Origin: Escherichia coli
Lineage (GTDB): Bacteria > Pseudomonadota > Gammaproteobacteria > Enterobacterales > Enterobacteriaceae
Length of the DNA: 64,000 nt
Strand: one strand, 5' to 3'
Assembly (NCBI RefSeq): GCF_024223415.1
Contig: NZ_CP100503.1
Shown: one piece after another, positions 50,330 through 63,128 of the stretch
How positions within the stretch are numbered: the stretch's first letter is position 1
How the letters are laid out: each line of letters begins with the position of its first letter
Program-made: the position numbers and the translations under genes
Notes under the pieces: generated by a model
Seen by the model: only the letters and a program-made list of their open reading frames with translations
What the model was told of the DNA's origin: nothing
The model's database searches: none

Positions 50330-52057
50330 TTACTCAGAGTCACCGGCATCAATCGTGTCGCCGCTTATGAAGTTAAGCCCGCCTTTTTTGGCCATTGTCA
50401 GCGTTACACGAGTGAAGTAATCAGCGCCGTTGCGTGGGTGCATATCGTTGATAGCCGAACCCCACAGCGTGGTACGGTTGACCAGCGCCGGAGTGGTCGG
50501 ATGCTGGAACGGGATGGCCGGGACAGCATCACCAGTCACGAAGCCTGCTTTACCCGGATTTTCATCACGGACGTAGCACAGCACATCCATCGAGCTGAAC
50601 TGAATGTTCTCTGTCGTTAAGTTCTTACAAATACCAGCAGGTACTTCGTACACTTTCACGTTACCGAACAGGGTACCGATGTAGTGAACATACGGAGTCT
50701 GGATATAGTCTTCGGCTGGCTGGAAGAAATCCTTCGGCAACTGTTTGAAGAAAGATGCTGCATCAGCACCAGCAAACATCCCCATCGCACCAGAAGATTT
50801 AACGCGCTCAATAATGTCGCGATATACAGTCTGGAATTTGCCACGAATGATGGTTGCCCATACATCAAAGGACTGGTTAACCGGCAGAGCGATGTCAAAG
50901 GTGTCGTTCGCAAGAGTACGCCAGATCATGATGCGAAGACGCAGCATATCCTGTTCATGAGACAGGTATTCCTTCAGGGTGCGGAACTGTAGGGAACCCA
51001 GGTCCAGACCAAATTCACGCTGTGCTTCATACGCCGCCTGTACCGTGTGCTCAGCCGCGATAACGAACTGGCTTGGGAACAGGGTGTATTTCTTCATTTC
51101 GTGGTTGATCAGCGGGATCAGCTCAGGAGCGGCTTCAATATTGATTTCCGTCTCAATTGCGATCTCAGTGCCTTTATCCGGCGCTTTGGAGAACGACAGG
51201 GCAATCTGACCAATGTTGTAGTTCAGAGAGCAGGTAACAGTGATTTGCTCACCAGCAGCATTAGTAAACGAGTGAAGTAGGCTGCCGGAACCGTTATCAA
51301 CAACAGACTTAATACGGTTAACGTAGATATTAGTGCGACCTTTTCGGATTGGTACATTCTGGCCTTCGAAGTCTTCCATCTTGAAGGTTGCGGTTTTGCT
51401 GGTGCCATCGGAGCTTGCCACCAGCACATAGCGGCGGCGTAACTGGCTGTACACACCGACGGATTGCATGTCCAGAACATCACCAGCAGCATAAGAACCA
51501 AAAGAGGAACCTGCCACGTTAAAGACTTCATAGATGTCGGACTGGTCACGCGTAACCGGAATGAAGGTACACGCATCAGCGGTAGCTGCCCCCAACTGAA
51601 CAGGCAGGATCATCGCGAGGAATAAAGGCAGACGCATAACACCGTCAGAAACGCTCATCATCTCTGCTGCGACGGATTCCAGCATCGCTTTATTAGTGGC
51701 ATCCATGCTATTGCGGGTAGACTCAATCAGGCAGTTTTCCAGCGTCTGGTGGCAGGAGGCCAGAATTTCCGGACGCGGCATAGATTTATGTGCTGCGGCG
51801 TAGTCAGCCAGTGCACTTGCCCACGCTGTAGCGATTTGAGCGGTGGCATTATCAGAGATACCCGCAAAAACCGGGTCTTTACGTGCAGCTTCAAGGATAG
51901 ATGCGGCACGCGCGGCATCATCTTTAATGAATTGGTTATCAGTACCGAACTGCGCAGTGCTTGCCCAGCCAAGCACAGCTTTAGAGCGTTTTGCGATATC
52001 TGCAATACGATTCTGGTATTCGCGTAAGTTACTCAATTTACTCTTCCTTAAACACAA
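50330..52057 (-). CDS. Putative major head/structural protein (gene adjacent to parS, P1 gene 23 position)
   Basis: 575 aa ORF starting next to parS; assignment by position only. Confidence 0.4.
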   Translation of the reverse strand: MCLRKSKLSNLREYQNRIADIAKRSKAVLGWASTAQFGTDNQFIKDDAARAASILEAARKDPVFAGISDNATAQIATAWASALADYAAAHKSMPRPEILASCHQTLENCLIESTRNSMDATNKAMLESVAAEMMSVSDGVMRLPLFLAMILPVQLGAATADACTFIPVTRDQSDIYEVFNVAGSSFGSYAAGDVLDMQSVGVYSQLRRRYVLVASSDGTSKTATFKMEDFEGQNVPIRKGRTNIYVNRIKSVVDNGSGSLLHSFTNAAGEQITVTCSLNYNIGQIALSFSKAPDKGTEIAIETEINIEAAPELIPLINHEMKKYTLFPSQFVIAAEHTVQAAYEAQREFGLDLGSLQFRTLKEYLSHEQDMLRLRIMIWRTLANDTFDIALPVNQSFDVWATIIRGKFQTVYRDIIERVKSSGAMGMFAGADAASFFKQLPKDFFQPAEDYIQTPYVHYIGTLFGNVKVYEVPAGICKNLTTENIQFSSMDVLCYVRDENPGKAGFVTGDAVPAIPFQHPTTPALVNRTTLWGSAINDMHPRNGADYFTRVTLTMAKKGGLNFISGDTIDAGDSE

Positions 52058-52169
52058 GGCACTTGTGTGAATCCCTTTTCGGAAGAGATTTTATTGAAAG
52101 TCACTTGTTGACTTTCTCGTGACAAGCAATTTTTTTATTTTTTTCGGGAGTAGGGGAGGAAGGTAAAAT

Positions 52170-52261
52170 CCAAGGTGAAATCGTGGCGATTTCACCTTGA
52201 AATTTTAGATGGATTTACTTTAAAAACAGTAGGTTAATAGTGAAATTTGAATGGCGAAAGT
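52170..52261 (-). other. parS: parS partition site
   Basis: GTGAAAT-CGTGGCGA-ATTTCAC (box A heptamers and box B hexamer TCGCCA) at 52174-52196, A/T-rich IHF-like centre, second GTGAAAT...TGGCGA at 52240-52258; immediately downstream of parB stop. Confidence 0.75.
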
Positions 52262-53263
52262 TTAAGGCTTCGGCTTTTTATCGAGGCTCTTTCTAAGGAT
52301 ATGCCCAATCATCCTGTCGAGTTCTTCCTGTAGCTCTTTTGAAAGTCGATTAAACTCATAAGAAAATGCACGGCCTTTCACGCGCTTCCTTGCAAAGCGA
52401 TCCTTGTCCTCAAATTTCCATAATTCAGTAACTACGGACTTATCTTTAGAACCTTTATCCGTGAGTAGTGAGGCTTCCTTTGTTATCAAGCGCAGGATTT
52501 TATTTTTAACTTCATCTTCGGCCATTTCTTCAATGGATAAGATGTCGTTTATTTCCGGGGATATGTTTTGAATAAGCTGATCAAACTCTAAATTCTTGTT
52601 CCCCATTTCGTCGCCAACAGCACAAAGCGTTTTGTAGTCCGAAAAGGTTAATTCCGACTGCACAGGGAAAAGGGCGACTAATTCTTCCGGAGCACTCGCT
52701 GCCTGGAGAGCACGCGTGACCTTCGCCTGAGACAGCCCTTCTTTGGCTGCAATATCCTTCTGACTCATCCCATCATTTTTCATTCGCATCAAACGCAGAC
52801 CTATTTCTCGAATGCTGTGCTGCAATGCTGTCTGAACGTCTTTCGCTAAATTTTGCGCTTCCTGAACGCTGATCTCCTGGTCCGTGACTAAAACCCGCAA
52901 CCCTACGTTCTCTAAGATGGCAGAAGCTCGACGCCGGGAACCATCCAAAATTTCAATTTTCCCTGTAGCCTGTCTAACACCTATTGCAGGGTAAAATTGC
53001 TGATGCTTAATAGTGCTTCGGATACTTTTTAATGATTTTGGCGTAAGAGATGCCTGGTCACGCCCGTTGTTATGCTGATCAACAAAGGTATCGCTTTCTA
53101 CCTGGTTCGGAGGTATTACCTCTTCAATAAATGTGGCCTGGCGACCAGTTGATAACTTGAATACCTGCTCGACTCGATCGCCAGAGGCTGAAGAACTATC
53201 AAATCCGCTTAATATTGAAGGATTAAGGGTTCGCCCAATTGTTGGTCTGTTTTTCTTTGACAT
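52262..53263 (-). CDS. parB: Partition protein ParB
   Basis: 333 aa; size and position as P1 ParB. Confidence 0.9.
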   Translation of the reverse strand: MSKKNRPTIGRTLNPSILSGFDSSSASGDRVEQVFKLSTGRQATFIEEVIPPNQVESDTFVDQHNNGRDQASLTPKSLKSIRSTIKHQQFYPAIGVRQATGKIEILDGSRRRASAILENVGLRVLVTDQEISVQEAQNLAKDVQTALQHSIREIGLRLMRMKNDGMSQKDIAAKEGLSQAKVTRALQAASAPEELVALFPVQSELTFSDYKTLCAVGDEMGNKNLEFDQLIQNISPEINDILSIEEMAEDEVKNKILRLITKEASLLTDKGSKDKSVVTELWKFEDKDRFARKRVKGRAFSYEFNRLSKELQEELDRMIGHILRKSLDKKPKP

Positions 53264-53279
53264 GGGGGTTTCTTACTCC

Positions 53280-54476
53280 TCAGTTAGATCTGATAAATTC
53301 AATACGGTCAAAAACTGCTTTAGCAAAATCTTCCGCAGCAATTCGCGCGTTCTTCAATGCATCAGCACTACCAACATACGTTGCCGGGTTAGCTGAAATA
53401 ACAGTGTCAAAAGACTCGCCGCAGCGTTCAAAACCGTCAAGGCGAGGGAGGACGACATCAAGCATATCCCCACCGAACACTTCTTTAGCCAGGCTATGGC
53501 AATACTTATGGTCTGCCTTGTTACTCAACTTGGACATAAAACCAATGTTAGTCGCAAGCTGGCACTCGCAGCCTTCATCCGAAATGAGTTTCACCAACTC
53601 AGGAAGGCGAGCAACATATTTAAGCGATGAGTGGAAATCAACCGTTGCAGGCGGCAGAGGTGTAAACAGTATATTGGCCGAGGCCAAAGCATTTTTCAGG
53701 AAGGCGTCAAGGTGAGGACCACTATCAACGAGGATAAAGTCATAATCGCTCTTCAGCTTATCAATCACATTTTCTTTCAGGACTGCATGGATGTTCTGAC
53801 CCGGTAGATGCTCATTGCACAGCTCTCTCCAATCGGATGCAATAAAGGCATCGTCAATCGACGCAGGCATAACGTCAACCCCAGGTACAACAGAAGGAAC
53901 AATAAACTCCTCTAACAGCTCTTCACGGCTTACATTCTGCAACATAGCCTGTGCAGATGTTGCGTTTACGATACCAATAGAGTGTTTATGGCTTAAAAAC
54001 ATCGTTGCTGAAGATTGCGGATCAAGGTCAATAACCAGAATCCTTAAATCTTCCATCAGAAGATGAGGGTGAGCACGCATTGCATGCGCCAGAGAAACCG
54101 TCGATACAGTTTTTGACACACCGCCTTTAAGATTGGAGATGAAAATCACATACGCTTCGCTGTAGCGATCCCGGTATTTTGGCACTCCGCGATGTTCATA
54201 TATGTCAATGATGTTCTGAATTGACATCGCATATTTCATTGAAGAGCCAGCAGGGCGTTTATCGAAAACATAACCCTTTTCTTCCATTTCACTTACGGCA
54301 TAGTCAACGTTCGCTCGAGTCAGTAGAGGCAATTTTGCCAGTGCCGCTTTCGCATAGACTTGGTAAAACTCGTTCGCGTGTAGCTCATCCTTTTGCAACT
54401 GTACTTGTTCAGTCAGAACATTGAGCATTCTGTTTGCTCTTTGAGCAACCTTGTGAAGCTGGCTGGAATCACTCAT
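53280..54476 (-). CDS. parA: Partition ATPase ParA (type Ia, with N-terminal HTH)
   Basis: 398 aa; deviant Walker A KGGVSKT. Confidence 0.9.
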   Translation of the reverse strand: MSDSSQLHKVAQRANRMLNVLTEQVQLQKDELHANEFYQVYAKAALAKLPLLTRANVDYAVSEMEEKGYVFDKRPAGSSMKYAMSIQNIIDIYEHRGVPKYRDRYSEAYVIFISNLKGGVSKTVSTVSLAHAMRAHPHLLMEDLRILVIDLDPQSSATMFLSHKHSIGIVNATSAQAMLQNVSREELLEEFIVPSVVPGVDVMPASIDDAFIASDWRELCNEHLPGQNIHAVLKENVIDKLKSDYDFILVDSGPHLDAFLKNALASANILFTPLPPATVDFHSSLKYVARLPELVKLISDEGCECQLATNIGFMSKLSNKADHKYCHSLAKEVFGGDMLDVVLPRLDGFERCGESFDTVISANPATYVGSADALKNARIAAEDFAKAVFDRIEFIRSN

Positions 54477-54644
54477 CGAAAGTCATCCTTTATGCTGTAT
54501 TTTTGAATTTACTTAAAAATGCTGCATAAAATAATAATGTATGCACAGATGCTTGTACATAGCATTCTCTGCATGTTTGGTTCATTTTGCACGATTGAGA
54601 GTTACAAGGAGGACACAAAAAAGCCCCGTTCAGGGGCATCAGTG

Positions 54645-55454
54645 TTATTTGCTAAGAGCAGCGAATAATCGTTCGAAATCGATAGTATCTATAGCACGCG
54701 TAAGCGCCGGAAGTTCAGTCTCAAAGTACCCGTGTCGATCGTAAAAGAAGGGACCGAAGAGCGAGGCATGTTGGATTCTACTTCGCCCCAGCCCGGACAC
54801 ACAGTTAAGCCCATTACCGGCTAAAAGGCTAAAAAACTTCTCTGGATTATCGTGGTAAAGCTGGGAATCAATGGTGGCGGTTAACTCTTCCATAGGGAAG
54901 CACACCCGCCCTGTCTCCCAGGGATATTTAGTCCGAAGCATAAACACTGCTTTCAGCAATTCACATTGAGCGCGGATCGCGTCCGGTTCATAGCCAGATA
55001 TGGAGACATAAGCCACGTCCCTCATTCCTGCGTCATCTTTGAAAGTCACGATAGAAGTAACATCCAACTCTTTTTCGAAAGAGCGAGCAGCATCTACTGG
55101 ACGCTGAAGTAAATCATTCGACTTAATGCGCTCGAGAATCCCTCCCCACATATCATTTAGATATTCGATATGAGCCAAAACCTTATCAAGACACTCTCGT
55201 GTAAACCATTCAGTATGCCCGCCACCGGCGCTTTTCTCCCACGGCGCATTCCAGGGGAAAAAGGTTGCGTGTAAAGCCCGCTCAAGATTAACTATTGCCA
55301 AACGCGTACCACGATAGACCCGTGAAAGCGCAAAATCGGGACTCACTTGTAGCCCTTTAAACCGTGCCAATGGACCACATGAAATGCCGATTTTAAAAGT
55401 ATCTCCATTCTCCGGCACCAGAACGTAGAGGTAGTGTTGTTTCTCTTCTTGCAT
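54645..55454 (-). CDS. T5orf172 / GIY-YIG-like domain protein
   Basis: 269 aa; YLYVL...FKIGIS...GGHTEWF pattern at N-terminus; sits between incA iterons and parA. Confidence 0.5.
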   Translation of the reverse strand: MQEEKQHYLYVLVPENGDTFKIGISCGPLARFKGLQVSPDFALSRVYRGTRLAIVNLERALHATFFPWNAPWEKSAGGGHTEWFTRECLDKVLAHIEYLNDMWGGILERIKSNDLLQRPVDAARSFEKELDVTSIVTFKDDAGMRDVAYVSISGYEPDAIRAQCELLKAVFMLRTKYPWETGRVCFPMEELTATIDSQLYHDNPEKFFSLLAGNGLNCVSGLGRSRIQHASLFGPFFYDRHGYFETELPALTRAIDTIDFERLFAALSK

Positions 55455-55488
55455 ATCAATACCACTGCTTGATGAGAACCGCGCAAAT

Positions 55489-55745
55489 GTTGACTATGCG
55501 CGAAAGTTAATGTGAATAGTTGACTATGCGCGATGTGACTACAGTAAAAAGTTGACTGTAGTCGATTTAACTCCACCAAAGATCGACTATGTAAGATATT
55601 GTCGGGAGAAACGTTGACTATACGCGATGAAATGACCCTAAAAGCCATCTCAATAGCGACTTGCAGAATATTGACGCCAGCAAAAATCCACCAGCGTCAA
55701 CGAATGTCGCCTATAGTCAACTTCTCGCTATCGCATATAGTCAAT
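55489..55745 (-). repeat. incA: incA-like iteron array downstream of repA
   Basis: About 8 copies of GTTGACTATGCGCGA-like 15-mers in both orientations (55489, 55519, 55551, 55581, 55613, 55706, 55731). Confidence 0.7.
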
Positions 55746-55746
55746 A

Positions 55747-56631
55747 TTATGGATTACGCTTATGGATCTGGAAGCCGATTTTCCTGCCGTTTTTTATCTC
55801 TGAAAATTTAAGATATTCAATAGCTTCCAAATCTTTCATGGCTTTTCTGATAACGCTATTTTGCACGCTAACGGATGATTTGAGATTAAGCCTTGCTCTA
55901 AGGCGCTCAATGCTGACAGGTGCCGGGTTGGCGGGTAGAGCCTCAAAGAATGTATACAGTACCTTGGCCGTCTCTTTGCGCCCGAGCTTATCCAGCATCT
56001 TCAGCTTCAGGATTCGCTTATAGTCAACATAGTAAAGTTCAGATAGCTGTTTCTGCGGCTGGATCTCGATAACATCAAGCTCGGTATTCAGGCTGCTATA
56101 TGCCAACAAGTTGACGTTAATGTTATTGAGATGACCTTTTGCCGCCGGGAAGCGGAATTTGACAACTGTCTGCTGAATGCGTGTCAGAGAGTCATCAATA
56201 CTTTTACGGAACGCCTTTGAAAGGCGCTTACGTGGATAGCCGCATCGATCGGCAAACTCGGAGAATGGCAGGGTGATTATGCCGTCATCATCAGGTGCGT
56301 AGTCAAACAACGCGGAGGTTATGCCCACCCACACCTTAAAATCAGTATCCATATCCAGGCGTGGACCATGAATTTCAATTCCCTCATAGCCTTCCTGCTC
56401 AACAATTTTGAGGCTTGATAGTTCTTCGGTTGCGTTCGTTGTGTTTGTAGTAACTGACGATCCGCGACGTAGTGCCACATTGGTAGATTTTAAGGTTGGC
56501 ACAAACACACCTAAGCGCAACAAAGCGATGGGTTGTATAGTGCTATTGTTATTGGGTTTCAGGCTGTGGATTTCTCCTGTATTTCCTGCAACTTCTTCAA
56601 CGCTAAGGAAGCCTTTATTTTCTTCCGGCAT
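55747..56631 (-). CDS. repA: Plasmid replication initiator RepA
   Basis: Flanked by iteron arrays; start set at MPEENKG (294 aa), ORF track extends to a TTG at 56688. Confidence 0.75.
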   Translation of the reverse strand: MPEENKGFLSVEEVAGNTGEIHSLKPNNNSTIQPIALLRLGVFVPTLKSTNVALRRGSSVTTNTTNATEELSSLKIVEQEGYEGIEIHGPRLDMDTDFKVWVGITSALFDYAPDDDGIITLPFSEFADRCGYPRKRLSKAFRKSIDDSLTRIQQTVVKFRFPAAKGHLNNINVNLLAYSSLNTELDVIEIQPQKQLSELYYVDYKRILKLKMLDKLGRKETAKVLYTFFEALPANPAPVSIERLRARLNLKSSVSVQNSVIRKAMKDLEAIEYLKFSEIKNGRKIGFQIHKRNP

Positions 56632-56693
56632 CGTGGTTTCTCCATATGTGGCGCGGCCTGGCGTCATCTGGATTGCAGTTATCAACAACTGTG

Positions 56694-56811
56694 AATAGTC
56701 AGGCTCTAAAATCGCGTACAGTCAATGTTTCTGTCGCGTATAGTCAACAATAAATCGCGTGCAGTCAACAATAAATCGTGCACAGTCAACATAAAATCGC
56801 GTATAGTCAAT
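56694..56811 (-). repeat. oriR: oriR iteron array upstream of repA
   Basis: Five direct repeats of TCGCGTATAGTCAAC-like units at about 21-bp spacing. Confidence 0.7.
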
Positions 56812-56964
56812 GTTAATCCCATTTCAGGCCAGAAATGGCGCGGCTTACAGCGATCCGGGATCTTCTTTGGATCTTCCTGGGTTCTCTTTAGGATCTGTTT
56901 ATTGGATCTATGCTGTGGATAAGTTGAATAAACCGGCCAACATAGCCGGTTGGAAGGAAGGGTA

Positions 56965-57357
56965 TTATTCTACGCTTTCGATAAGAAGACCATGTTCATA
57001 ACATTTAAGCTCATCGCCTTCGTACAGGAATTGGTATCCAATACCACCATTTTCATGGACATTAGGGAATAACTCATAACTCACTGAAGAGCAAATCACA
57101 CCAATGCAACGATCAACGCCTTCTCGTTCTTCAGTGCTGAAAAAATCCTCTTCGGTAAGAACATGAGTACATTGCTCATCAGCATAGGTCGGAAATACAT
57201 GCTCGATGCAATCCGGGTGTTTTAAACCAAGCTGATCGGCAAGCTCGAAAGCATGACGGTATTGTTCAGATCCTGGCTTGCCAACAGTGATGTGCTCAAT
57301 TTTGTAGATTGAAGTCGCTTTGTTGATAGTTTGCTTTACTGTTACTTTATCAGACAT
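56965..57357 (-). CDS. Hypothetical protein (upfA position)
   Basis: 130 aa ORF upstream of oriR. Confidence 0.4.
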   Translation of the reverse strand: MSDKVTVKQTINKATSIYKIEHITVGKPGSEQYRHAFELADQLGLKHPDCIEHVFPTYADEQCTHVLTEEDFFSTEEREGVDRCIGVICSSVSYELFPNVHENGGIGYQFLYEGDELKCYEHGLLIESVE

Positions 57358-57368
57358 AAAAATCCCTT

Positions 57369-57701
57369 TTAGTTACCGCTGATAGCGCGGTTGTAATCAT
57401 TAACGTTGCGATTCTTCCTGTTAATCCCCTTCAGCATCGTTTCTGTATCAAGGATATAGGCTGGCAGATCATCAAAATATTCACTGCTAAATTCTGGCAT
57501 CCTGCACATAAATGCACTTTTGGGGGCAGGGTGGTTAACCTTTGTCGGCGTCGGCGTTAAATTCGCTGATCGACTCCCGGAGCAACCGCTGAGTGTCAGC
57601 AGGAATACGCTGGCGAACATTACCCGCCGCAACCAGTTGTTTCTGAACTTCAGCTTTTCGTTCCATTTGCCTGTCAGCATACTTGGCTTGTTCTGATTCA
57701 T
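57369..57701 (-). CDS. Putative membrane lipoprotein (mlp position)
   Basis: Lipobox LTLSGC; true start probably internal, so the gene is shorter than the ORF. Confidence 0.45.
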   Translation of the reverse strand: MNQNKPSMLTGKWNEKLKFRNNWLRRVMFASVFLLTLSGCSGSRSANLTPTPTKVNHPAPKSAFMCRMPEFSSEYFDDLPAYILDTETMLKGINRKNRNVNDYNRAISGN

Positions 57702-57957
57702 TTTTCACTTCCTGGCTGTGAAAATGTTGCTCTGCTTTGTTCATCGTCTCAATGGCCTGGTTAAGATCCATTATTGACTTATCACGTTCCTTAACAGCCT
57801 GATCAAGACTGCCAATTTTCTCCATGGCTTGCTTTAGCTGATGACGTTCCCATGCAAACCCAGCACCAACAAGTGCGCAAATCAGAACAAGAACACCAGT
57901 AGCAGCAAGTTTCTCCTTCAAAGACAAAGCTGTTTTTAACGTAGAAAAGAATGACAT
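57535..57957 (-). CDS. Membrane-anchored coiled-coil protein (ppfA position)
   Basis: Start at MSFFST with AGGAGG RBS; N-terminal TM segment. Confidence 0.4.
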   Translation of the reverse strand: MSFFSTLKTALSLKEKLAATGVLVLICALVGAGFAWERHQLKQAMEKIGSLDQAVKERDKSIMDLNQAIETMNKAEQHFHSQEVKNESEQAKYADRQMERKAEVQKQLVAAGNVRQRIPADTQRLLRESISEFNADADKG

Positions 57958-57996
57958 GTCTTCCTCCTGAAGAAAAATTATCAATGAAGTCCTTTG

Positions 57997-58842
57997 TTAC
58001 TGTGCCGCTTTGTTTAATTCATCAAGAACAGAATCAGGAACCAAAGCGGCAACTGCGCTGGCTGTGCTGGCCTTATTTGCTGATGCTTCCGCAAGCGCGG
58101 TACCGATAGCATGGTTATAAGCAGTTATGGCTACGTTGGCGCTTTCATTCGCTCGTTCATACTGCTGTTGTAACGCAGTTGTGGGCGCTGTTGTCTGGTT
58201 GAAAACAACCCCAAACTGTTCAGTTGCTACTTTCAGAGATTCAATTTGCTCTTCTGTTAGTGCTGGTGGGGGAATGGCAGTGCCGCCGCCTGAACCAGAG
58301 CCTGACGAGCTTCCTGAACCAGTGTTAAGGGTCTGGTTAATCTCCCCCATAGCAGCGACTAAACTTGATGTATTAAGCGCGTTAACAGCGTCCTCAAGCG
58401 ATTTAGTAATATTCACATCACCAATGGCAATAGAGATCAGCAGTTCTGAAACTTCTCGCTCATTAGCACGGCAGTAAACATCCCAACCAATATCGAGTTG
58501 AAGCAGCATTGACAGATCTGCATAACCAGCCAACAGGTCCGCGTGCTTAGTTGCCAGTTCTCCAATGTTCGTTAAGCCGGTTGTGGTTGTTCTGATCGTT
58601 GAAACATAGCTGGTAATAGTGTCGGGATAGACAATTGTATCCAGAATTAATCCGGTCAATTCTTCTGCAAGCTGTTTTGCCGTGTTAGCACTGTTTCGTG
58701 CCGATGTTATGGCACCAGGTGTTTTCATCCCACCGGCAGCGGCCAATTTTTTATATGCGGATAACTGGTAGTCTTTTTCCAGCATGATATCTCCTAACTT
58801 ACCTGAACCAGGCCGTCTCCTGACGCTACGGTAGAGCCGCAT
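57997..58842 (-). CDS. Hypothetical protein with Gly/Ser-rich linker
   Basis: 281 aa ORF; start may be internal (MLEKDY at 58785). Confidence 0.35.
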   Translation of the reverse strand: MRLYRSVRRRPGSGKLGDIMLEKDYQLSAYKKLAAAGGMKTPGAITSARNSANTAKQLAEELTGLILDTIVYPDTITSYVSTIRTTTTGLTNIGELATKHADLLAGYADLSMLLQLDIGWDVYCRANEREVSELLISIAIGDVNITKSLEDAVNALNTSSLVAAMGEINQTLNTGSGSSSGSGSGGGTAIPPPALTEEQIESLKVATEQFGVVFNQTTAPTTALQQQYERANESANVAITAYNHAIGTALAEASANKASTASAVAALVPDSVLDELNKAAQ

Positions 58843-59078
58843 GAAACAGGGTCACCAACGCATACGACCCCTTTACCATTGACGGTAAACCATGCCCTGG
58901 TTGATATAGCTTGCCCACCGTGCGTACTGTTTCCATCGGTATGCTGTGCATATTGCTTACCATCAACTAACACTTCGACTCCGTTGACTTTAAGTAGTGG
59001 TTCACTCTCTACAGGAGGCCTGGATGGGAATCCTCCGTGCCCCGAACAAATGCTGTCTTTTGTTGCAATACTTGCCAC
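58794..59078 (-). CDS. Small Cys/Gly-rich protein, possible PAAR-like spike tip
   Basis: 94 aa; VNGxxVxVxGD...CG pattern; weak assignment. Confidence 0.3.
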   Translation of the reverse strand: MASIATKDSICSGHGGFPSRPPVESEPLLKVNGVEVLVDGKQYAQHTDGNSTHGGQAISTRAWFTVNGKGVVCVGDPVSCGSTVASGDGLVQVS

Positions 59079-59158
59079 GTCATCACCAATTATTTGCTCT
59101 GGTTTTTGTTATTTTAACTTAGGTTACTTGTGGTCTAAATGGCGTTAACTATTGCATA

Positions 59159-59175
59159 ATTGCTCTAATAAATAT
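59159..59175 (+). promoter_or_regulatory. C1 operator upstream of uhr-hrdC-dmt
   Basis: ATTGCTCTAATAAATAT. Confidence 0.65.
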
Positions 59176-59531
59176 TGTTTTTTATGTCGTGTTTTCGGTA
59201 CCATTCAGCCATCGCCCTTCAATGGGCATTTGTTTGGAGTCGTCAGATGCAGATGGAGCTAATAAGCCGCAAGGAGTTCGATAGCCGTGTAACCAGCGGT
59301 GAACTCGACAACTTGCAGGCTATCAAGGTGAAAGAAGGCTTTTGCCTCATTGGGAATCAGAGCGGAACAAATCGCGTTTTTATGCTTCGCCGTACGGATT
59401 TGAAGCCATTTGTCTGGAAGAACGAAATTGGTCCCAGCTCATACGCTCAAACGAGGGGGTGCCACAACCTGGCCTTTTTCTACAAAGACGAGCTTTCTGT
59501 GGTTGATATTCAAGGGTTACAACATGTTTAA
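59175..59531 (+). CDS. uhr: Hypothetical protein upstream of hrdC
   Basis: ORF overlapping hrdC start by 8 bp; start may be internal. Confidence 0.4.
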
Positions 59532-60429: not shown

Positions 60430-63128
60430 AAGAGCTGTGCTATGGATCTGTTTGCAGTGGAATTGAAGCCGCGAGTATTGCCTGGGAACCGTTGGGTATG
60501 CGTCCGGCGTGGTTTGCTGAAATCGAGCCTTTTCCATCAGCCGTTCTTGCGCACCGCTGGCCCCATGTCGCCAACCTTGGCGACATGACAAAACTTGCCA
60601 AAAAAGTCCTGGCTGGGGAAATCGAATCCCCTGATGTGCTGGTGGGAGGGACACCATGTTTTACCGCGGGCCATATGGTTCTTTGTAAAAATGGTTATAA
60701 ACCAATAGAAGATGTTTGCCCTGGCGATTACGTAGTCAGTCATCTCGGGCGGTTACAACAAGTAAAAAAAGTTGGTTCAAAAATAGCTAATACGGGGTTA
60801 CTTAATGCCGTTGGGCAGCCTTTAGGTATAAGAACAACCAACGACCATCCCTTCCTGGCGGTTCGGTGGAAAGCCCAAAACACCCGGAAAAATGGCACAT
60901 ATTTTAAGAGAGAGTTGTTGTCTGAACCGGAATGGCGAGCAGCATGTGATATGCCGGGATATCAATGGTGTGCTCTAACTAATTTCAATATTGCATCTCC
61001 AGATATTTGTTCTCGGTTCTTGTCTGAAGAACAGGCTATGTATCTTGCGGGCGCTTATGTTGGCGATGGATATATTAGGAGATGGAGAGGTAAATCTAAG
61101 AAGGCGGTTGTTTTTGGCATAAATTGCCAGAAATTGAGAAAGTTTCATTGCCGCATATCAGAAAACATATTTTCCGTGGCAAGCGAAATCCGAGGGAGCA
61201 TCAAAGTAACCTTGAATGATACGTGTTATGCCAATTGGCTTAATGAACATTTTGGCGAGTTAAGCCATGCTAAGCGTATCCCTGCATGGGTGATGTCGCA
61301 TCCATTGCGTCATGTGTTTTTACAAGGCTATCTTGATACTGATGGGACACCAAGTGGTAAAGCGGGATTTAGAATTAATAGTGTTAGTCCTGCGCTTGCT
61401 TGGGGCGTTGCGGAGTTGTCACAGACTTGTGGTTATGTTTCTTCGGTCAGCTTTATTGAAGTTGAGCCCAAAAAAGTGATTGAGGATCGCGTGGTAAATC
61501 AACGGAATTATTATCAGGTAACAATCTGCCCGCAGAAATTGTCACGTAAATCAAGATTGGCTCATGGAATGCTTTTACGAACAGTCAAAGAGTTTAAATC
61601 GGTAGGCCTAGATACTGTATACAACATAGAAGTCGAAGGTGATCATTCCTATATCCTCAATGGTGCGGTGGTCCATAACTGTCAGGCATTCAGTATCGCT
61701 GGATTACGTGGCGGGCTTGATGATGAGCGTGGCGCGCTAACTTTAAAGTATGTGGAGCTTGCAAATGCAATTGACGACAAACGGGCTGAGTCATTTCTCA
61801 AACCAGCCGTTATCGTCTGGGAAAATGTCCCAGGAGTCTTGTCATCGGCAGATAACGCCTTCGGATGTTTCCTTGCCGGATTGGCTGGAGAAGATGTGCC
61901 ATTTGAACCAGGTGATCGACCTGAATCAGGAAAAAGCAACGCGTTCTGGCGGTGGGATGGCAAAACCGGTTGCCATGTTCCAAAGTGGCCGCAGTGTGGT
62001 TGTATTTATGGACCGCAGCGAAAGGTGGCCTGGAGAATCCTTGATGCCCAATACTTCGGAGTGGCACAACGACGCCGACGCGTGTTTGTTGTCGCAAGTG
62101 CTCGAACAGACCTCGATCCCGCAACGGTACTTTTTGAGTTCGAAGGCGTGCGCCGGAATATTGCGCCGAGCCGAAAAAAGAAGGAAATCGCTTCCGCCAT
62201 TACTGCAAATGGCGCTGCAATCAGTGGCGAAAGCCTAAATCCATGCCTACACGCTGGCATGTCCCCCGGTATGAAATCGACGAAAGCCGTAAACGCTTTC
62301 AGGATGGCAGCATTTGGGGAATATATTGACGATGAAACCGCATCGACAGTAAAGGCAAGAGATTTTAAAGATGCCACTGACCTTGCCGTTTTTAGCAGCA
62401 CAGGAGCAGGTTTTTGGTCAGAAGGGCATGGTACATTGCGGGCACGTGAGCAAGAAAGCCATGAGCATCTTGTTACATTGGCTTTTCCTGAGCGTATGAG
62501 CGGTACACAACATGCTGCAACTAAGAATACTTCACCATCTCTAATGGCTAAAAATCCAACAGCTGTTTGCTATGAAGTAAGAAACGCAGAAGTAGCTGTC
62601 CGCCGTCTTACCCCTGTCGAATGTGAAAGGCTGCAAGGTTTTCCTGATGGGCATACGTTGATCCCGACGGAAAAGCGTAAAAAAGTTAATTCAGATGAAC
62701 TGGCATATCTTCGCAATCACTATCCAGATTTAAGCGAAGAAGAGGCCGCGATGCTTGCAGCTGACGGACCGCGTTACAAAGCGATCGGCAATAGTATGGC
62801 AATACCAGTAATGCGCTGGATTGGCGATCGGATTACTAAGGCCGTATGTCGGCAGAAAGAAGGAAGTGAAACAAAAGAGCGAAAAGTTAAACCAGCGGCA
62901 GAATTCGAACGGTCCATATTCAAATGGGCTGGTGGAAAATTTGGTGTTCTGGAACAAATCTTTCGCTATTTGCCAGAAGGGAAGCGCCTGATTGAACCTT
63001 TTGTCGGTGGCGGAGCTGTCTTCACGAATGCCGGATACCAGGAAAATCTGCTAAATGATGTGAATGCTGACCTGATTAACTTTTACCCAGTGCGCCGTAA
63101 AGCCCCGTCCTTCAGGTCGGGGATATAA
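60426..63128 (+). CDS. dmt: Bifunctional DNA methyltransferase Dmt (C5-cytosine MTase domain with intein, Dam-like domain), 3'-interrupted by IS
   Basis: Motif [14 protein letters not shown] split by intein; ENV, QRRRVF motifs; Dam-like FKWAGGKF...[10 protein letters not shown]...DLINFY; last 14 codons are IS-derived from 63087. Confidence 0.8.
60657..61679 (+). other. Intein (341 aa) with LAGLIDADG homing endonuclease domain
   Basis: Begins Cys (CFTAGH...), block [17 protein letters not shown] motifs [12 protein letters not shown] and [11 protein letters not shown], ends ...[21 protein letters not shown] followed by +1 Cys. Confidence 0.85.

What the first reader, a model, noticed from the sequence alone, without database searches (positions are those of the whole stretch)
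54645..55454. T5orf172/GIY-YIG-like gene between the incA iterons and parA
In P1 as I recall it, the incA iterons are followed directly by the par operon. Here a 269-aa protein with an N-terminal T5orf172-type (GIY-YIG-like) motif set and an unassigned C-terminal domain is inserted at that point. The gene is co-oriented with repA and parAB. This may be an accessory nuclease-like function (defence or anti-defence) riding on the replication/partition transcript.
Basis: inference. Interest (0 to 1): 0.6.

Follow-up and report, generated by a model that had tools for sequence, protein, structure and literature searches.

The report
Nuclease gene riding a swapped plasmid replicon
A 269-residue gene with an intact-looking DNA-cutting domain and a probable DNA-binding domain shaped like a replication initiator sits at the edge of an alternative plasmid-replication cassette ('p0111') in a P1-like phage-plasmid; it is common, already annotated, dispensable and untested, and most likely a selfish or competitive site-specific nuclease.

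Summary
The ORF is real: window 54645-55454, minus strand, 269 aa. Residues 8-85 match Pfam T5orf172, and every GIY-YIG-type motif residue is kept. P1 itself lacks the gene.

It is not an insertion behind P1's incA iterons. The window is a SJ46/JL22/RCS47-type P1-like element. A 2,249-bp cassette (54579-56827) replaces P1's incA-repA-incC block. The cassette holds new iterons, repA' of PlasmidFinder type 'p0111', and this gene with its own terminator. P1's Ppar promoter and the DnaA-box/GATC half of oriR are kept.

The gene is linked almost 1:1 to repA'. It occurs in about 400 PLSDB plasmids and 411 of 5,426 complete E. coli genomes. The only divergent homologue found (43% identity) lies at the same position in another P1-like lineage.

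It evolves under relaxed constraint (piN/piS 0.29, against 0.002-0.03 for its neighbours). It has been inactivated at least five separate times.

The C-terminal domain has no sequence relatives. A moderate-confidence model resembles winged-helix domains, mainly those of iteron-type replication initiators.

Best reading: a homing-endonuclease-like site-specific nuclease at a module boundary. It may be an origin-directed nuclease like phage ICP1's Odn, aimed at rival replicons. No activity or target is shown.

The parts
54645..55454 (-). ORF269: two-domain protein (T5orf172 nuclease domain plus winged-helix-like domain), 269 aa
   Evidence: ORF list; Pfam and PHROG hits; named 'GIY-YIG nuclease family protein' in RefSeq records
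55200..55433 (-). N-terminal T5orf172 (GIY-YIG superfamily) domain, residues 8-85
   Evidence: Pfam PF10544 iE 1.3e-5. Y8, Y10, K21, G23, R31, E58, H62 and E82 are invariant in an alignment with the 43% homologue and three phage T5orf172 endonucleases
54648..55067 (-). C-terminal domain (about residues 130-269), no sequence relatives, predicted winged-helix fold like Rep initiators
54615..54637 (-). Intrinsic terminator of ORF269 (GCCCC-UGAAC-GGGGC plus U6), 8 nt after the stop codon
   Evidence: Terminator scan; fold dG -13.2 kcal/mol, z -3.25
54579..56827 (.). p0111-type replicon cassette that replaces P1 61316-62806 (incA, repA, incC iterons)
   Evidence: blastn window vs P1: homology is 99.1% up to 54578 and resumes at 56828 at 94.1%. 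The same breakpoint occurs in about 390 plasmids
55485..55745 (.). Downstream iteron array: four iterons in one orientation (55485-55627) and two in the other (55705-55745); the last iteron ends 31 bp before the ORF269 ATG
   Evidence: Repeat families D3 and D5 and inverted pairs I2-I25; conserved in L004
55747..56631 (-). repA' (p0111 type), Rep3-family iteron initiator, 294 aa
   Evidence: Pfam Rep3_N/WH1 7e-4 and Rep3_C/WH2 1.3e-5; phrog_775; 44-47% identical to RepFIB-type RepA of plasmids; 'p0111' naming from PMC9603915
56707..56815 (.). Upstream array of five iterons at 21-bp spacing (origin and repA' promoter region)
   Evidence: Repeat families D1 and D2
56828..56925 (-). Retained P1-type half of oriR: GATC cluster and DnaA box TTATCCACA (56914-56922)
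   Evidence: Homology to P1 62807 onward; P1 annotation of Dam sites and DnaA box; sequence read
54531..54559 (-). Retained P1 Ppar promoter (TGTACA-17-TATTAT), 19 bp inside the P1-homologous flank
   Evidence: Promoter scan; P1 annotation Ppar 61268-61296; alignment
52262..54476 (-). parA-parB operon, P1 type (99% identical to P1)

Best explanation
ORF269 is a free-standing, two-domain, site-specific DNA endonuclease of the T5orf172 (GIY-YIG superfamily) type. The catalytic domain is N-terminal. A fast-evolving winged-helix domain at the C-terminus supplies DNA recognition. It is a homing-endonuclease-like passenger at the par-proximal edge of the p0111 replicon cassette of P1-like phage-plasmids, and it is not part of the replication or partition machinery. 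Inferred mechanism: when a p0111-type element meets a related element that lacks the cassette (an IncY-type P1-like plasmid), the nuclease cuts the rival in or near the alternative replicon allele. The break is then either repaired from the p0111 element, carrying the nuclease gene and the linked repA' and iterons into the rival between the conserved flanks (Ppar on one side, the DnaA/GATC half of oriR on the other), or the rival is lost. What is shown: the domain make-up, the intact catalytic motif, the exact module-boundary position, the tight linkage to repA', the gene's own terminator, its dispensability, and relaxed or rapid evolution. What is inferred: nuclease activity, the target, and any homing or conversion.
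For: 1) Nuclease domain. Pfam T5orf172 iE 1.3e-5 and phrog_681 'endonuclease' 1e-9. Its weak relatives (31-36% identity) are endonuclease genes of lytic Vibrio, Kuttervirus and Klebsiella phages. Y8/Y10, K21-x-G23, R31, E58, H62 and E82 are invariant across these and across the 43%-identical homologue. The equivalent Glu is needed for Odn activity (PMC8263062).
3) Boundary position. P1 homology ends 36 bp beyond the terminator's T-run (54578/54579) and resumes 12 bp beyond the outermost iteron (56827/56828). About 390 plasmids share the same break. T5orf172 homing endonuclease genes are documented at boundaries of genetic exchange, next to essential 'cargo' genes (PMC10448857).
4) Linkage and absence elsewhere. 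About 400 plasmids carry the ORF and 397 carry repA' at 80% identity or more. All 44 IMG/VR loci have repA'-ORF-parA. IncY elements with either P1-type or other par genes have no gene at this site.
5) Dispensable and decaying, as in a homing-endonuclease life cycle. piN/piS is 0.29 against 0.024 (repA'), 0.002 (parA) and 0.033 (parB). Seven of 43 full-length copies carry premature stops (W68*, S112*, Q228*). There is also one IS200/IS605 disruption and one frameshift. The split products have 151 and 229 member sequences, against 1,241 for the intact protein.
6) Fast evolution of the targeting domain. In L004 the neighbours are 84% (RepA), 89% (ParA) and 80% (gp23) identical, but this protein is only 43% overall and 30% in the C-terminal domain.
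Against: No cleavage activity, target site or conversion event is shown. There is no pair of otherwise identical genomes with and without the gene: presence is perfectly confounded with the replicon type, so independent mobility is not demonstrated. No paralogues or copies at other loci were found, unlike the expanded T5orf172 homing-endonuclease families of ICP1 or T5. Rep and par modules also swap at this ~170-bp junction in elements that lack any nuclease gene, so the boundary position may simply reflect modular recombination. No clean deletions of the gene were seen among about 400 p0111 elements. The gene has been kept at the same site in two lineages whose flanking genes are only 67-89% identical, which suggests some selected benefit beyond pure selfishness. 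The N-terminal part of the full-length AF2 model is low confidence, so the GIY-YIG fold is supported by sequence only.
Confidence: 0.42

Rival explanations
1. Origin-directed nuclease like Odn ('replicon warfare'). The C-terminal domain derives from, or mimics, a winged-helix domain of a Rep initiator. It either reads the iterons of a competing replicon or docks onto a Rep protein bound there. The T5orf172 domain then cuts the rival's origin and eliminates the competing plasmid or phage-plasmid, rather than promoting homing.
Confidence: 0.22
2. Domesticated DNA-binding regulator. The protein no longer acts mainly as a nuclease. It binds DNA at or near the replicon (for example the adjacent iterons) to tune repA' expression, copy number or par expression, in the way that PLE CapR or I-TevI autorepression use endonuclease-derived proteins.
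For: It sits 31 bp from the downstream iteron array, and this arrangement is conserved in L004. It has a winged-helix-like domain. There are precedents for domesticated proteins related to T5orf172 homing endonucleases (PMC8096241). The gene has been kept at the same site in two diverged lineages.
Against: The catalytic-motif residues are all conserved, which a pure regulator would not need. Five or more independent knockouts occur in naturally maintained plasmids, and piN/piS is 10 to 100 times that of repA' and parA. The C-terminal domain is only 30% conserved while the iterons and RepA are conserved.
Confidence: 0.1
3. Anti-phage defence or anti-defence effector carried as cargo next to the replicon.
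For: Nucleases are common in defence. P1-like elements carry variable defence cargo (bioRxiv 10.1101/2025.09.12.675607). The gene shows accessory-type evolution.
Against: No PADLOC model matches and no NCBIfam model matches. It is a single gene with no partner genes. It is never found outside this one replicon context, unlike mobile defence genes. It is not in any of the known variable cargo regions of P1-like elements apart from the replicon region itself (PMC9603915).
Confidence: 0.12
4. Functionless relic. The ORF is a leftover from the plasmid ancestor of the p0111 replicon and drifts toward pseudogenisation with no present activity.
For: About 16% of copies are truncated, there are IS and frameshift disruptions, and piN/piS is raised.
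Against: piN/piS of 0.29 is still well below 1. About 84% of copies are intact. The catalytic residues are invariant. An intact homologue is kept at the same site in a lineage with saturated synonymous divergence. No clean deletions were seen among about 400 elements.
Confidence: 0.14

Closest known systems
T5orf172-type free-standing homing endonuclease genes of lytic phages (ICP1 gp53/gp121/gp130 family, T5-like phages; PMC10448857)
   Same: A T5orf172 catalytic domain with the conserved Tyr, Lys-x-Gly, Arg, Glu/His and Glu residues. The nuclease domain is at one terminus and a separate DNA-recognition region at the other. The gene sits next to an essential gene and exactly at a boundary of genetic exchange. 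It shows signs of decay.
   Different: In the phage relatives examined, and in the ICP1 family as described by Netter et al. (PMC8096241), the T5orf172 domain is C-terminal. Barth et al. (PMC10448857) report that most such genes carry CapR, DUF723 or DUF4397 Zn-finger DNA-binding domains. Here the nuclease is N-terminal and the partner is a winged-helix-like domain with no sequence relatives. It is a single copy in one locus of a plasmid-replicon cassette, with no paralogue family, and homing has not been demonstrated.
Odn (ICP1 gp88), origin-directed nuclease (PMC8263062)
   Same: A T5orf172 nuclease fused to a domain resembling a replication initiator's DNA-binding domain. The setting is a conflict between replicons. 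The catalytic Glu is conserved.
repA'(p0111) + 'gp57' module of P1-like phage-plasmids JL22, SJ46 and RCS47 (PMC9603915)
   Same: This is the same module at 98.7-99.1% DNA identity. The gene is JL22 'gp57', called an unknown protein in that paper.
   Different: Nothing differs structurally. The published descriptions stop at 'unknown protein' or 'GIY-YIG nuclease family protein'. They do not report the exact junctions, the chimeric oriR, the decay pattern or the Rep-like C-terminal fold.
P1 IncY plasmid replicon (oriR/incC - repA - incA - Ppar parAB)
   Same: The same overall layout: iterons, an initiator gene, a second iteron array, then par. The Ppar-parAB region and the DnaA-box/GATC half of oriR are shared at 94-99% identity.
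   Different: The initiator is different (41% aa identity). The iterons differ (TCGCGYATAGTCAAC core against P1's 19-mers). There are six rather than nine downstream iterons, in two orientations. An extra nuclease gene with its own terminator lies between the downstream iterons and Ppar.

Membership tests
T5orf172 domain (Pfam PF10544; GIY-YIG clan) | Significant match to the family profile over most of its length | tested here: met
   iE 1.3e-5, score 26.0, model 2-87 of 101, residues 8-85. The precomputed Pfam label PF10544 is on the database cluster. phrog_681 'endonuclease' 1e-9
T5orf172 domain (Pfam PF10544; GIY-YIG clan) | Conserved motif residues: Tyr in strand 1, [KY]-[IV]-G in strand 2, catalytic Arg, Glu/His helix, catalytic Glu (E-W-F) | tested here: met
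   Y8, Y10, K21, G23, R31, E58, H62 and E82 are invariant in the alignment with P0004 and three phage T5orf172 endonucleases. None is polymorphic in 43 natural copies
T5orf172 domain (Pfam PF10544; GIY-YIG clan) | GIY-YIG alpha/beta fold | tested here: inconclusive
   The full-length AF2 model has pLDDT 58.6. The secondary-structure order beta-beta-alpha-beta-alpha-beta-alpha is compatible, but Foldseek against PDB gave nothing significant
T5orf172 domain (Pfam PF10544; GIY-YIG clan) | Endonuclease activity dependent on the conserved Glu | not testable with these tools
   Needs purified protein and an E82A control
Free-standing homing endonuclease gene | Nuclease domain plus a separate DNA-recognition domain in one small ORF with its own expression signals | tested here: met
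   T5orf172 domain plus a winged-helix-like domain. Own terminator. Promoter not identified
Free-standing homing endonuclease gene | Presence/absence polymorphism at one locus between otherwise homologous genomes | tested here: inconclusive
   Present in p0111-type and absent from IncY-type P1-like elements that share flanks at 94-99% identity. However, presence is completely linked to a different repA and different iterons, so no allele pair differs by the nuclease gene alone
Free-standing homing endonuclease gene | Located at a recombination or mosaic boundary next to an essential gene | tested here: met
   The junction 54578/54579 lies 66 bp beyond the stop codon, and the same break occurs in about 390 plasmids
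Free-standing homing endonuclease gene | Evidence of mobility: copies at other loci, or paralogues | tested here: not met
   Only this locus, with one 90% cluster and one 43% homologue at the same site, in 5.8 billion and 1.84 billion protein collections, PLSDB and IMG/VR
Free-standing homing endonuclease gene | Cleavage of the allele that lacks the gene, and gene conversion | not testable with these tools
   Requires in vitro cleavage assays and co-residence crosses
Odn-like origin-directed nuclease (Rep-derived DNA-binding domain + T5orf172) | DNA-binding domain homologous to a replication initiator | tested here: inconclusive
Odn-like origin-directed nuclease (Rep-derived DNA-binding domain + T5orf172) | Iteron-dependent cleavage of a rival replicon's origin | not testable with these tools
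   Needs nuclease assays on IncY, RepFIB and p0111 origin fragments with and without iterons
Known anti-phage defence systems (PADLOC-DB v2) | Match to a defence-system protein model | tested here: not met
   No family at E <= 1
   There is no DNA homology to P1 61316-62806. The iteron core is TCGCGYATAGTCAAC. RepA' is 41% identical to P1 RepA
Rep3-family iteron replicon ('p0111', RepFIB-like) as the host cassette | Rep3 WH1 + WH2 initiator flanked by direct-repeat iterons | tested here: met
   Rep3_N 7e-4 and Rep3_C 1.3e-5. Five upstream and six downstream iterons. 44-47% aa identity to RepFIB-type RepA of plasmids

The most novel reading that the evidence does not exclude
ORF269 is a plasmid-encoded counterpart of ICP1's Odn: a T5orf172 nuclease whose targeting module is a winged-helix domain of the Rep-initiator (WH1) type. 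It directs cleavage to the iteron origin of competing replicons, for example IncY P1-like elements or RepFIB plasmids, either by reading their iterons or by docking onto Rep bound there. The p0111 replicon would then carry its own weapon for nuclease-mediated plasmid exclusion and/or replicon conversion. This would help explain why two replicon types coexist at roughly equal frequency on one phage-plasmid backbone.
Probability: 0.25. Interest if true: 0.8.

Novelty: new variant of a known kind. Interest (0 to 1): 0.5.

Why it matters
P1-like phage-plasmids are common carriers of resistance and virulence genes. This cassette is in 411 of 5,426 complete E. coli genomes. They come in two replicon types, IncY and p0111 (31 and 24 of 55 in PMC9603915). 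What drives replicon switching on a conserved phage backbone is not known. One possibility is a site-specific nuclease hard-wired to one of the two replicons, whose targeting domain looks like a replication initiator. That would give a concrete, testable mechanism for replicon replacement or for nuclease-mediated exclusion between plasmids. It would also extend the Odn principle of an initiator-derived nuclease from one Vibrio phage-satellite system to enterobacterial plasmids. If the gene instead proves to be an ordinary decaying homing-endonuclease passenger, it remains a clean example outside lytic phages of a nuclease gene marking a boundary of genetic exchange.

Tried and rejected
1) 'Simple insertion into the P1 replicon' is rejected. 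blastn against P1 shows a 2.25-kb replacement, not an insertion.
2) Origin from a non-P1 plasmid that carries the same gene: not found. Large or 'conjugative' records with the gene are co-integrates that still carry P1 parAB and gp23 next to it. The nearest outside RepA (Providencia, 53% identity) has no such gene downstream.
3) Sequence homologues of the C-terminal domain: the 1.84-billion representative search returned only fragments of the same family. Pfam, PDB sequence, NCBIfam and PADLOC all returned nothing.
4) Sequence similarity of the C-terminal domain to RepA of P1 or to repA': hhalign prob < 1%. The best local alignment (RepA 55-120) does not match Pfam's WH1 span (113-228) and is treated as noise.
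5) The full-length AF2 model was too weak (pLDDT 58.6), and its Foldseek PDB search was uninformative. Only the C-terminal domain modelled alone was usable.
6) A word-indexed homologue search with the N-terminal domain returned only fragments of the same family.
7) A structured RNA in the cassette: no Rfam hit at E <= 1.
8) Compositional evidence for foreign origin: GC is 46-49%, like the flanks.
9) pSvP1 (MN510446), reported to have '2 orfs inserted between repA and parA' (PMC6906374), could not be examined because the record is not in the collections.
10) An independent promoter for ORF269: no convincing sigma-70 match on the coding strand between repA' and the ATG. A 13-bp hairpin after repA' with a poor U-tract leaves read-through open.
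11) Polymorphism avoids the catalytic residues, but with 35 of 269 variable sites this is not statistically meaningful.
Full report
**What is there**

The window region is a P1-like phage-plasmid of the SJ46/JL22/RCS47 type. A 3.6-kb query around the finding matches these phages at 98.7-99.1% over its full length. True P1 (NC_005856) matches only the par side.

On the minus strand the order is:
- five iterons (56707-56815)
- repA' (55747-56631)
- six iterons (55485-55745)
- ORF269 (54645-55454)
- a GC hairpin plus U6 terminator (54615-37)
- Ppar, parA and parB

**Domain assignment**

Pfam finds T5orf172 (PF10544) at residues 8-85 (iE 1.3e-5). It gives only sub-threshold hits to clan-mates and nothing for the C-terminal half. 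PHROGs gives a dedicated family of unknown function (phrog_2876) and a 1e-9 hit to phrog_681 'endonuclease'. NCBIfam and PADLOC have no model. RefSeq calls the protein 'GIY-YIG nuclease family protein'.

tblastn with the N-terminal domain finds weak relatives (31-36% identity) in lytic Vibrio, Kuttervirus and Klebsiella phages. There the T5orf172 domain sits at the C-terminus of proteins annotated as 'endonuclease' or hypothetical.

I aligned these with ORF269 and its one divergent homologue. Y8, L9, Y10, K21, G23, R31, E58, H62, G79 and E82 are invariant. These correspond to the GIY/YIG strands and to the catalytic Arg and Glu. The equivalent Glu (E180) is required for the nuclease activity of the T5orf172 protein Odn (PMC8263062). 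So the 'T5orf172/GIY-YIG-like' part of the finding is confirmed, and the catalytic motif is intact.

**Not an insertion but a cassette replacement**

blastn of the window against P1 shows two blocks of homology:
- window 52001-54578 = P1 58738-61315, at 99.1%
- window 56828-59200 = P1 62807-65186, at 94.1%

Between them, 2,249 bp (54579-56827) replace P1's 1,491-bp incA-repA-incC block.

The left junction lies 19 bp upstream of the -35 of P1's Ppar, which is retained. It is 36 bp beyond the terminator's T-run. The right junction lies about 12 bp beyond the outermost new iteron. P1's GATC cluster and DnaA box (TTATCCACA, 56914-56922) are therefore retained. The origin is chimeric: P1's DnaA/GATC half plus foreign iterons.

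The iterons (core TCGCGYATAGTCAAC) are unrelated to P1's 19-mers. RepA' is a Rep3-family initiator: WH1 7e-4, WH2 1.3e-5. It is 41% identical to P1 RepA and 44-47% identical to RepFIB-type RepA of plasmids.

The literature calls this replicon 'p0111'. [quoted passage not shown] So the gene's existence at this place is known. Its nature is not.

**Distribution and linkage**

- PLSDB: 400 plasmid records contain the ORF, all at 90% aa identity or more. 397 contain repA' at 80% or more, and the next best RepA is 53%.
- Complete E. coli genomes: 411 of 5,426 carry the iteron-ORF segment, with 413 places on plasmids and 7 on chromosomes.
- IMG/VR: all 44 loci have repA'-ORF-parA.
- Large or 'conjugative' carriers are co-integrates that retain the P1 par and capsid genes next to the gene.
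- The 53%-identical Providencia replicon has no such gene.
- IncY elements, whether with P1-type or another par, have nothing between incA and parA.

In a 5.8-billion-protein collection, the only homologue below 90% identity is P0004 (43%). It lies at the same position in a different P1-like lineage (L004). There RepA is 84% identical, ParA 89%, ParB 67% and gp23 80%.

**Module junction**

I searched PLSDB with a P1 probe spanning parA, Ppar, incA and repA. The plasmids split into three classes:
- 143 records match the whole probe.
- About 390 match only up to the p0111 break.
- About 240 match only from incA iteron 1 onward (an IncY replicon with a different par).

The ~170-bp spacer P1 61316-61486 is therefore a general rep/par module junction, and ORF269 sits on the rep-module side of it. 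This cuts both ways. The gene marks a boundary of exchange, as T5orf172 homing endonuclease genes do in phages (PMC10448857). But exchange at this junction also occurs without any nuclease gene.

**Selection**

I compared 39 loci together with the window copy. piN/piS values:

| Gene | piN/piS |
|---|---|
| repA' | 0.024 |
| parA | 0.002 |
| parB | 0.033 |
| ORF269 | 0.29 (similar in both domains) |

There are 22 distinct ORF269 proteins, against 2-6 for the neighbours.

Seven of 43 full-length copies have premature stops:
- W68*
- S112* in five near-identical copies (one clade)
- Q228*, which is the SJ46 copy

One further copy is split by an IS200/IS605 element with loss of about 85 codons. 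One plasmid copy is frameshifted.

In the protein database the 111-aa and 168-aa products of split alleles have 151 and 229 member sequences. The intact form has 1,241.

The gene is therefore dispensable for maintenance of the phage-plasmid. This excludes an essential role in replication or partition. It is not neutral either: piN/piS is below 1, 84% of copies are intact, the motif residues are invariant, and an intact homologue survives in a lineage whose synonymous sites are saturated. Between the two lineages the nuclease domain is 65% identical and the C-terminal domain 30%. This is far below the flanking genes, a pattern typical of specificity domains in genetic conflicts.

**C-terminal domain**

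This domain has no sequence relatives. A profile search of 1.84 billion representatives returns only fragments of the same family.

Modelled alone (12 sequences, 2 lineages), it gives pLDDT 72.6 and pTM 0.71.

- TcpK bound to oriT
- Cdc6/ORC
- the MSBI1.176 Rep WH1 domain (103 of 129 residues)
- RctB
- pPS10 RepA WH1

Foldseek against AFDB50 gives no hit at E <= 1e-3. However, about 38 of the top 50 hits are iteron-type plasmid initiators: RepA, RepB family, 'RepFIB replication protein A', TrfA and 'Initiator Rep protein WH1'. Their E-values run from 2.4e-3 to 6.7e-2, with prob 0.9-1.0 and TMq 0.35-0.50.

Sequence-level tests are all negative. My estimates are about 0.85 that this is a winged-helix DNA-binding domain and about 0.6 that it is specifically Rep-initiator-like. 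Both rest on a predicted structure.

**Expression**

The terminator directly after the stop (dG -13.2 kcal/mol, z -3.25) and the intact Ppar show the gene is not on the par transcript. No convincing promoter lies between repA' and the ATG. The last iteron ends 31 bp upstream of the ATG here, and about 25 bp upstream in L004. Expression by read-through from the autoregulated repA' promoter, or from a weak promoter covered by iterons, is an inference. If it is right, it predicts de-repression on entry into a naive cell.

**Interpretation**

The best-supported reading (0.42) is a homing-endonuclease-like, site-specific T5orf172 nuclease at the edge of the p0111 cassette. It would cut related DNA that lacks the cassette, leading to conversion or loss of the rival.

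The most novel reading not excluded (about 0.22-0.25) is an origin-directed nuclease like Odn, with a Rep-like targeting domain.

The remaining readings are less likely, for the reasons given under each rival explanation:
- a domesticated regulator (0.10)
- a defence or anti-defence effector (0.12)
- a functionless relic (0.14)

Nuclease activity, the target and any conversion are all unshown.

**Verdict**

The gene is common and already annotated as a GIY-YIG family nuclease, and it was noted in the literature as an unknown ORF that accompanies repA'(p0111).

What is added here:
- the exact cassette junctions and the chimeric oriR
- the decay and relaxed-selection pattern
- a tentative Rep-like winged-helix assignment for the C-terminal domain

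It is best filed as a new variant of a known kind (T5orf172 homing-type or origin-directed nucleases). Interest is moderate because it gives a directly testable mechanism for replicon competition in P1-like phage-plasmids.

Noticed in passing
window 56828-56925 and 56707-56815: The plasmid origin is chimeric. P1's DnaA box (TTATCCACA, 56914-56922) and GATC cluster are kept at about 94% identity, while the five adjacent iterons are of the foreign p0111 type. The junction lies about 12 bp beyond the outermost iteron.
   Followed up: partly
P1 61316-61486 (L003 5380-5550), corresponding to window ~54579: A ~170-bp spacer between Ppar and incA is a shared module junction in P1-like plasmids. About 390 PLSDB records break at its par side (p0111 rep with P1 par). 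About 240 break exactly at incA iteron 1 (IncY rep with a different, 401-aa ParA par system). 143 are P1-like throughout.
   Followed up: partly
L046 4294-6084: An IS200/IS605-family element (TnpB 389 aa, TnpA 141 aa) is inserted in the nuclease gene, with loss of about 85 codons.
   Followed up: yes
L013, L014, L016, L018, L019 (codon 112 of the gene); proteins P0009 and P0003: A widespread S112* allele splits the gene. It yields a 111-aa nuclease-domain ORF and an overlapping 168-aa ORF that starts at M102 and encodes the C-terminal domain. Whether the two halves still work together is unknown.
   Followed up: partly
L004 (Logan ERR2144811 contig 21, 95.7 kb): A more distant P1-like phage-plasmid lineage with a p0111-like replicon (RepA 84%, ParA 89%, ParB 67%, gp23 80% identical). 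It has no close match in PLSDB. Its nuclease homologue was called with a start 41 codons too early; the true start is probably M42.
   Followed up: partly
Records OR339795.1 (phage phi456) and several PLSDB entries: Annotation problems. The gene is labelled 'terminase small subunit' in phi456. NC_ phage records label RepA/RepA' as 'replication helicase'. MOB-suite types the p0111 replicon as IncHI1B or IncFIB in PLSDB.
   Followed up: no
window 55665-55700 (minus strand): A 13-bp hairpin (UUGACGCUGGUGG...CUGGCGUCAA) lies just after the two direct iterons downstream of repA'. Its 5' arm, including a GGTGGATTTT motif, is conserved in L004. It could be a weak repA' terminator or a protein-binding site.
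   Followed up: no
E. coli chromosomes, e.g. NZ_CP178203.1 3511499-3512680: Seven chromosomal copies of the iteron-nuclease segment exist among 5,426 complete E. coli genomes. A preprint also mentions chromosomally integrated p0111 repA in S. Agona without phage genes (10.1101/2025.09.12.675607). The context was not examined.
   Followed up: no
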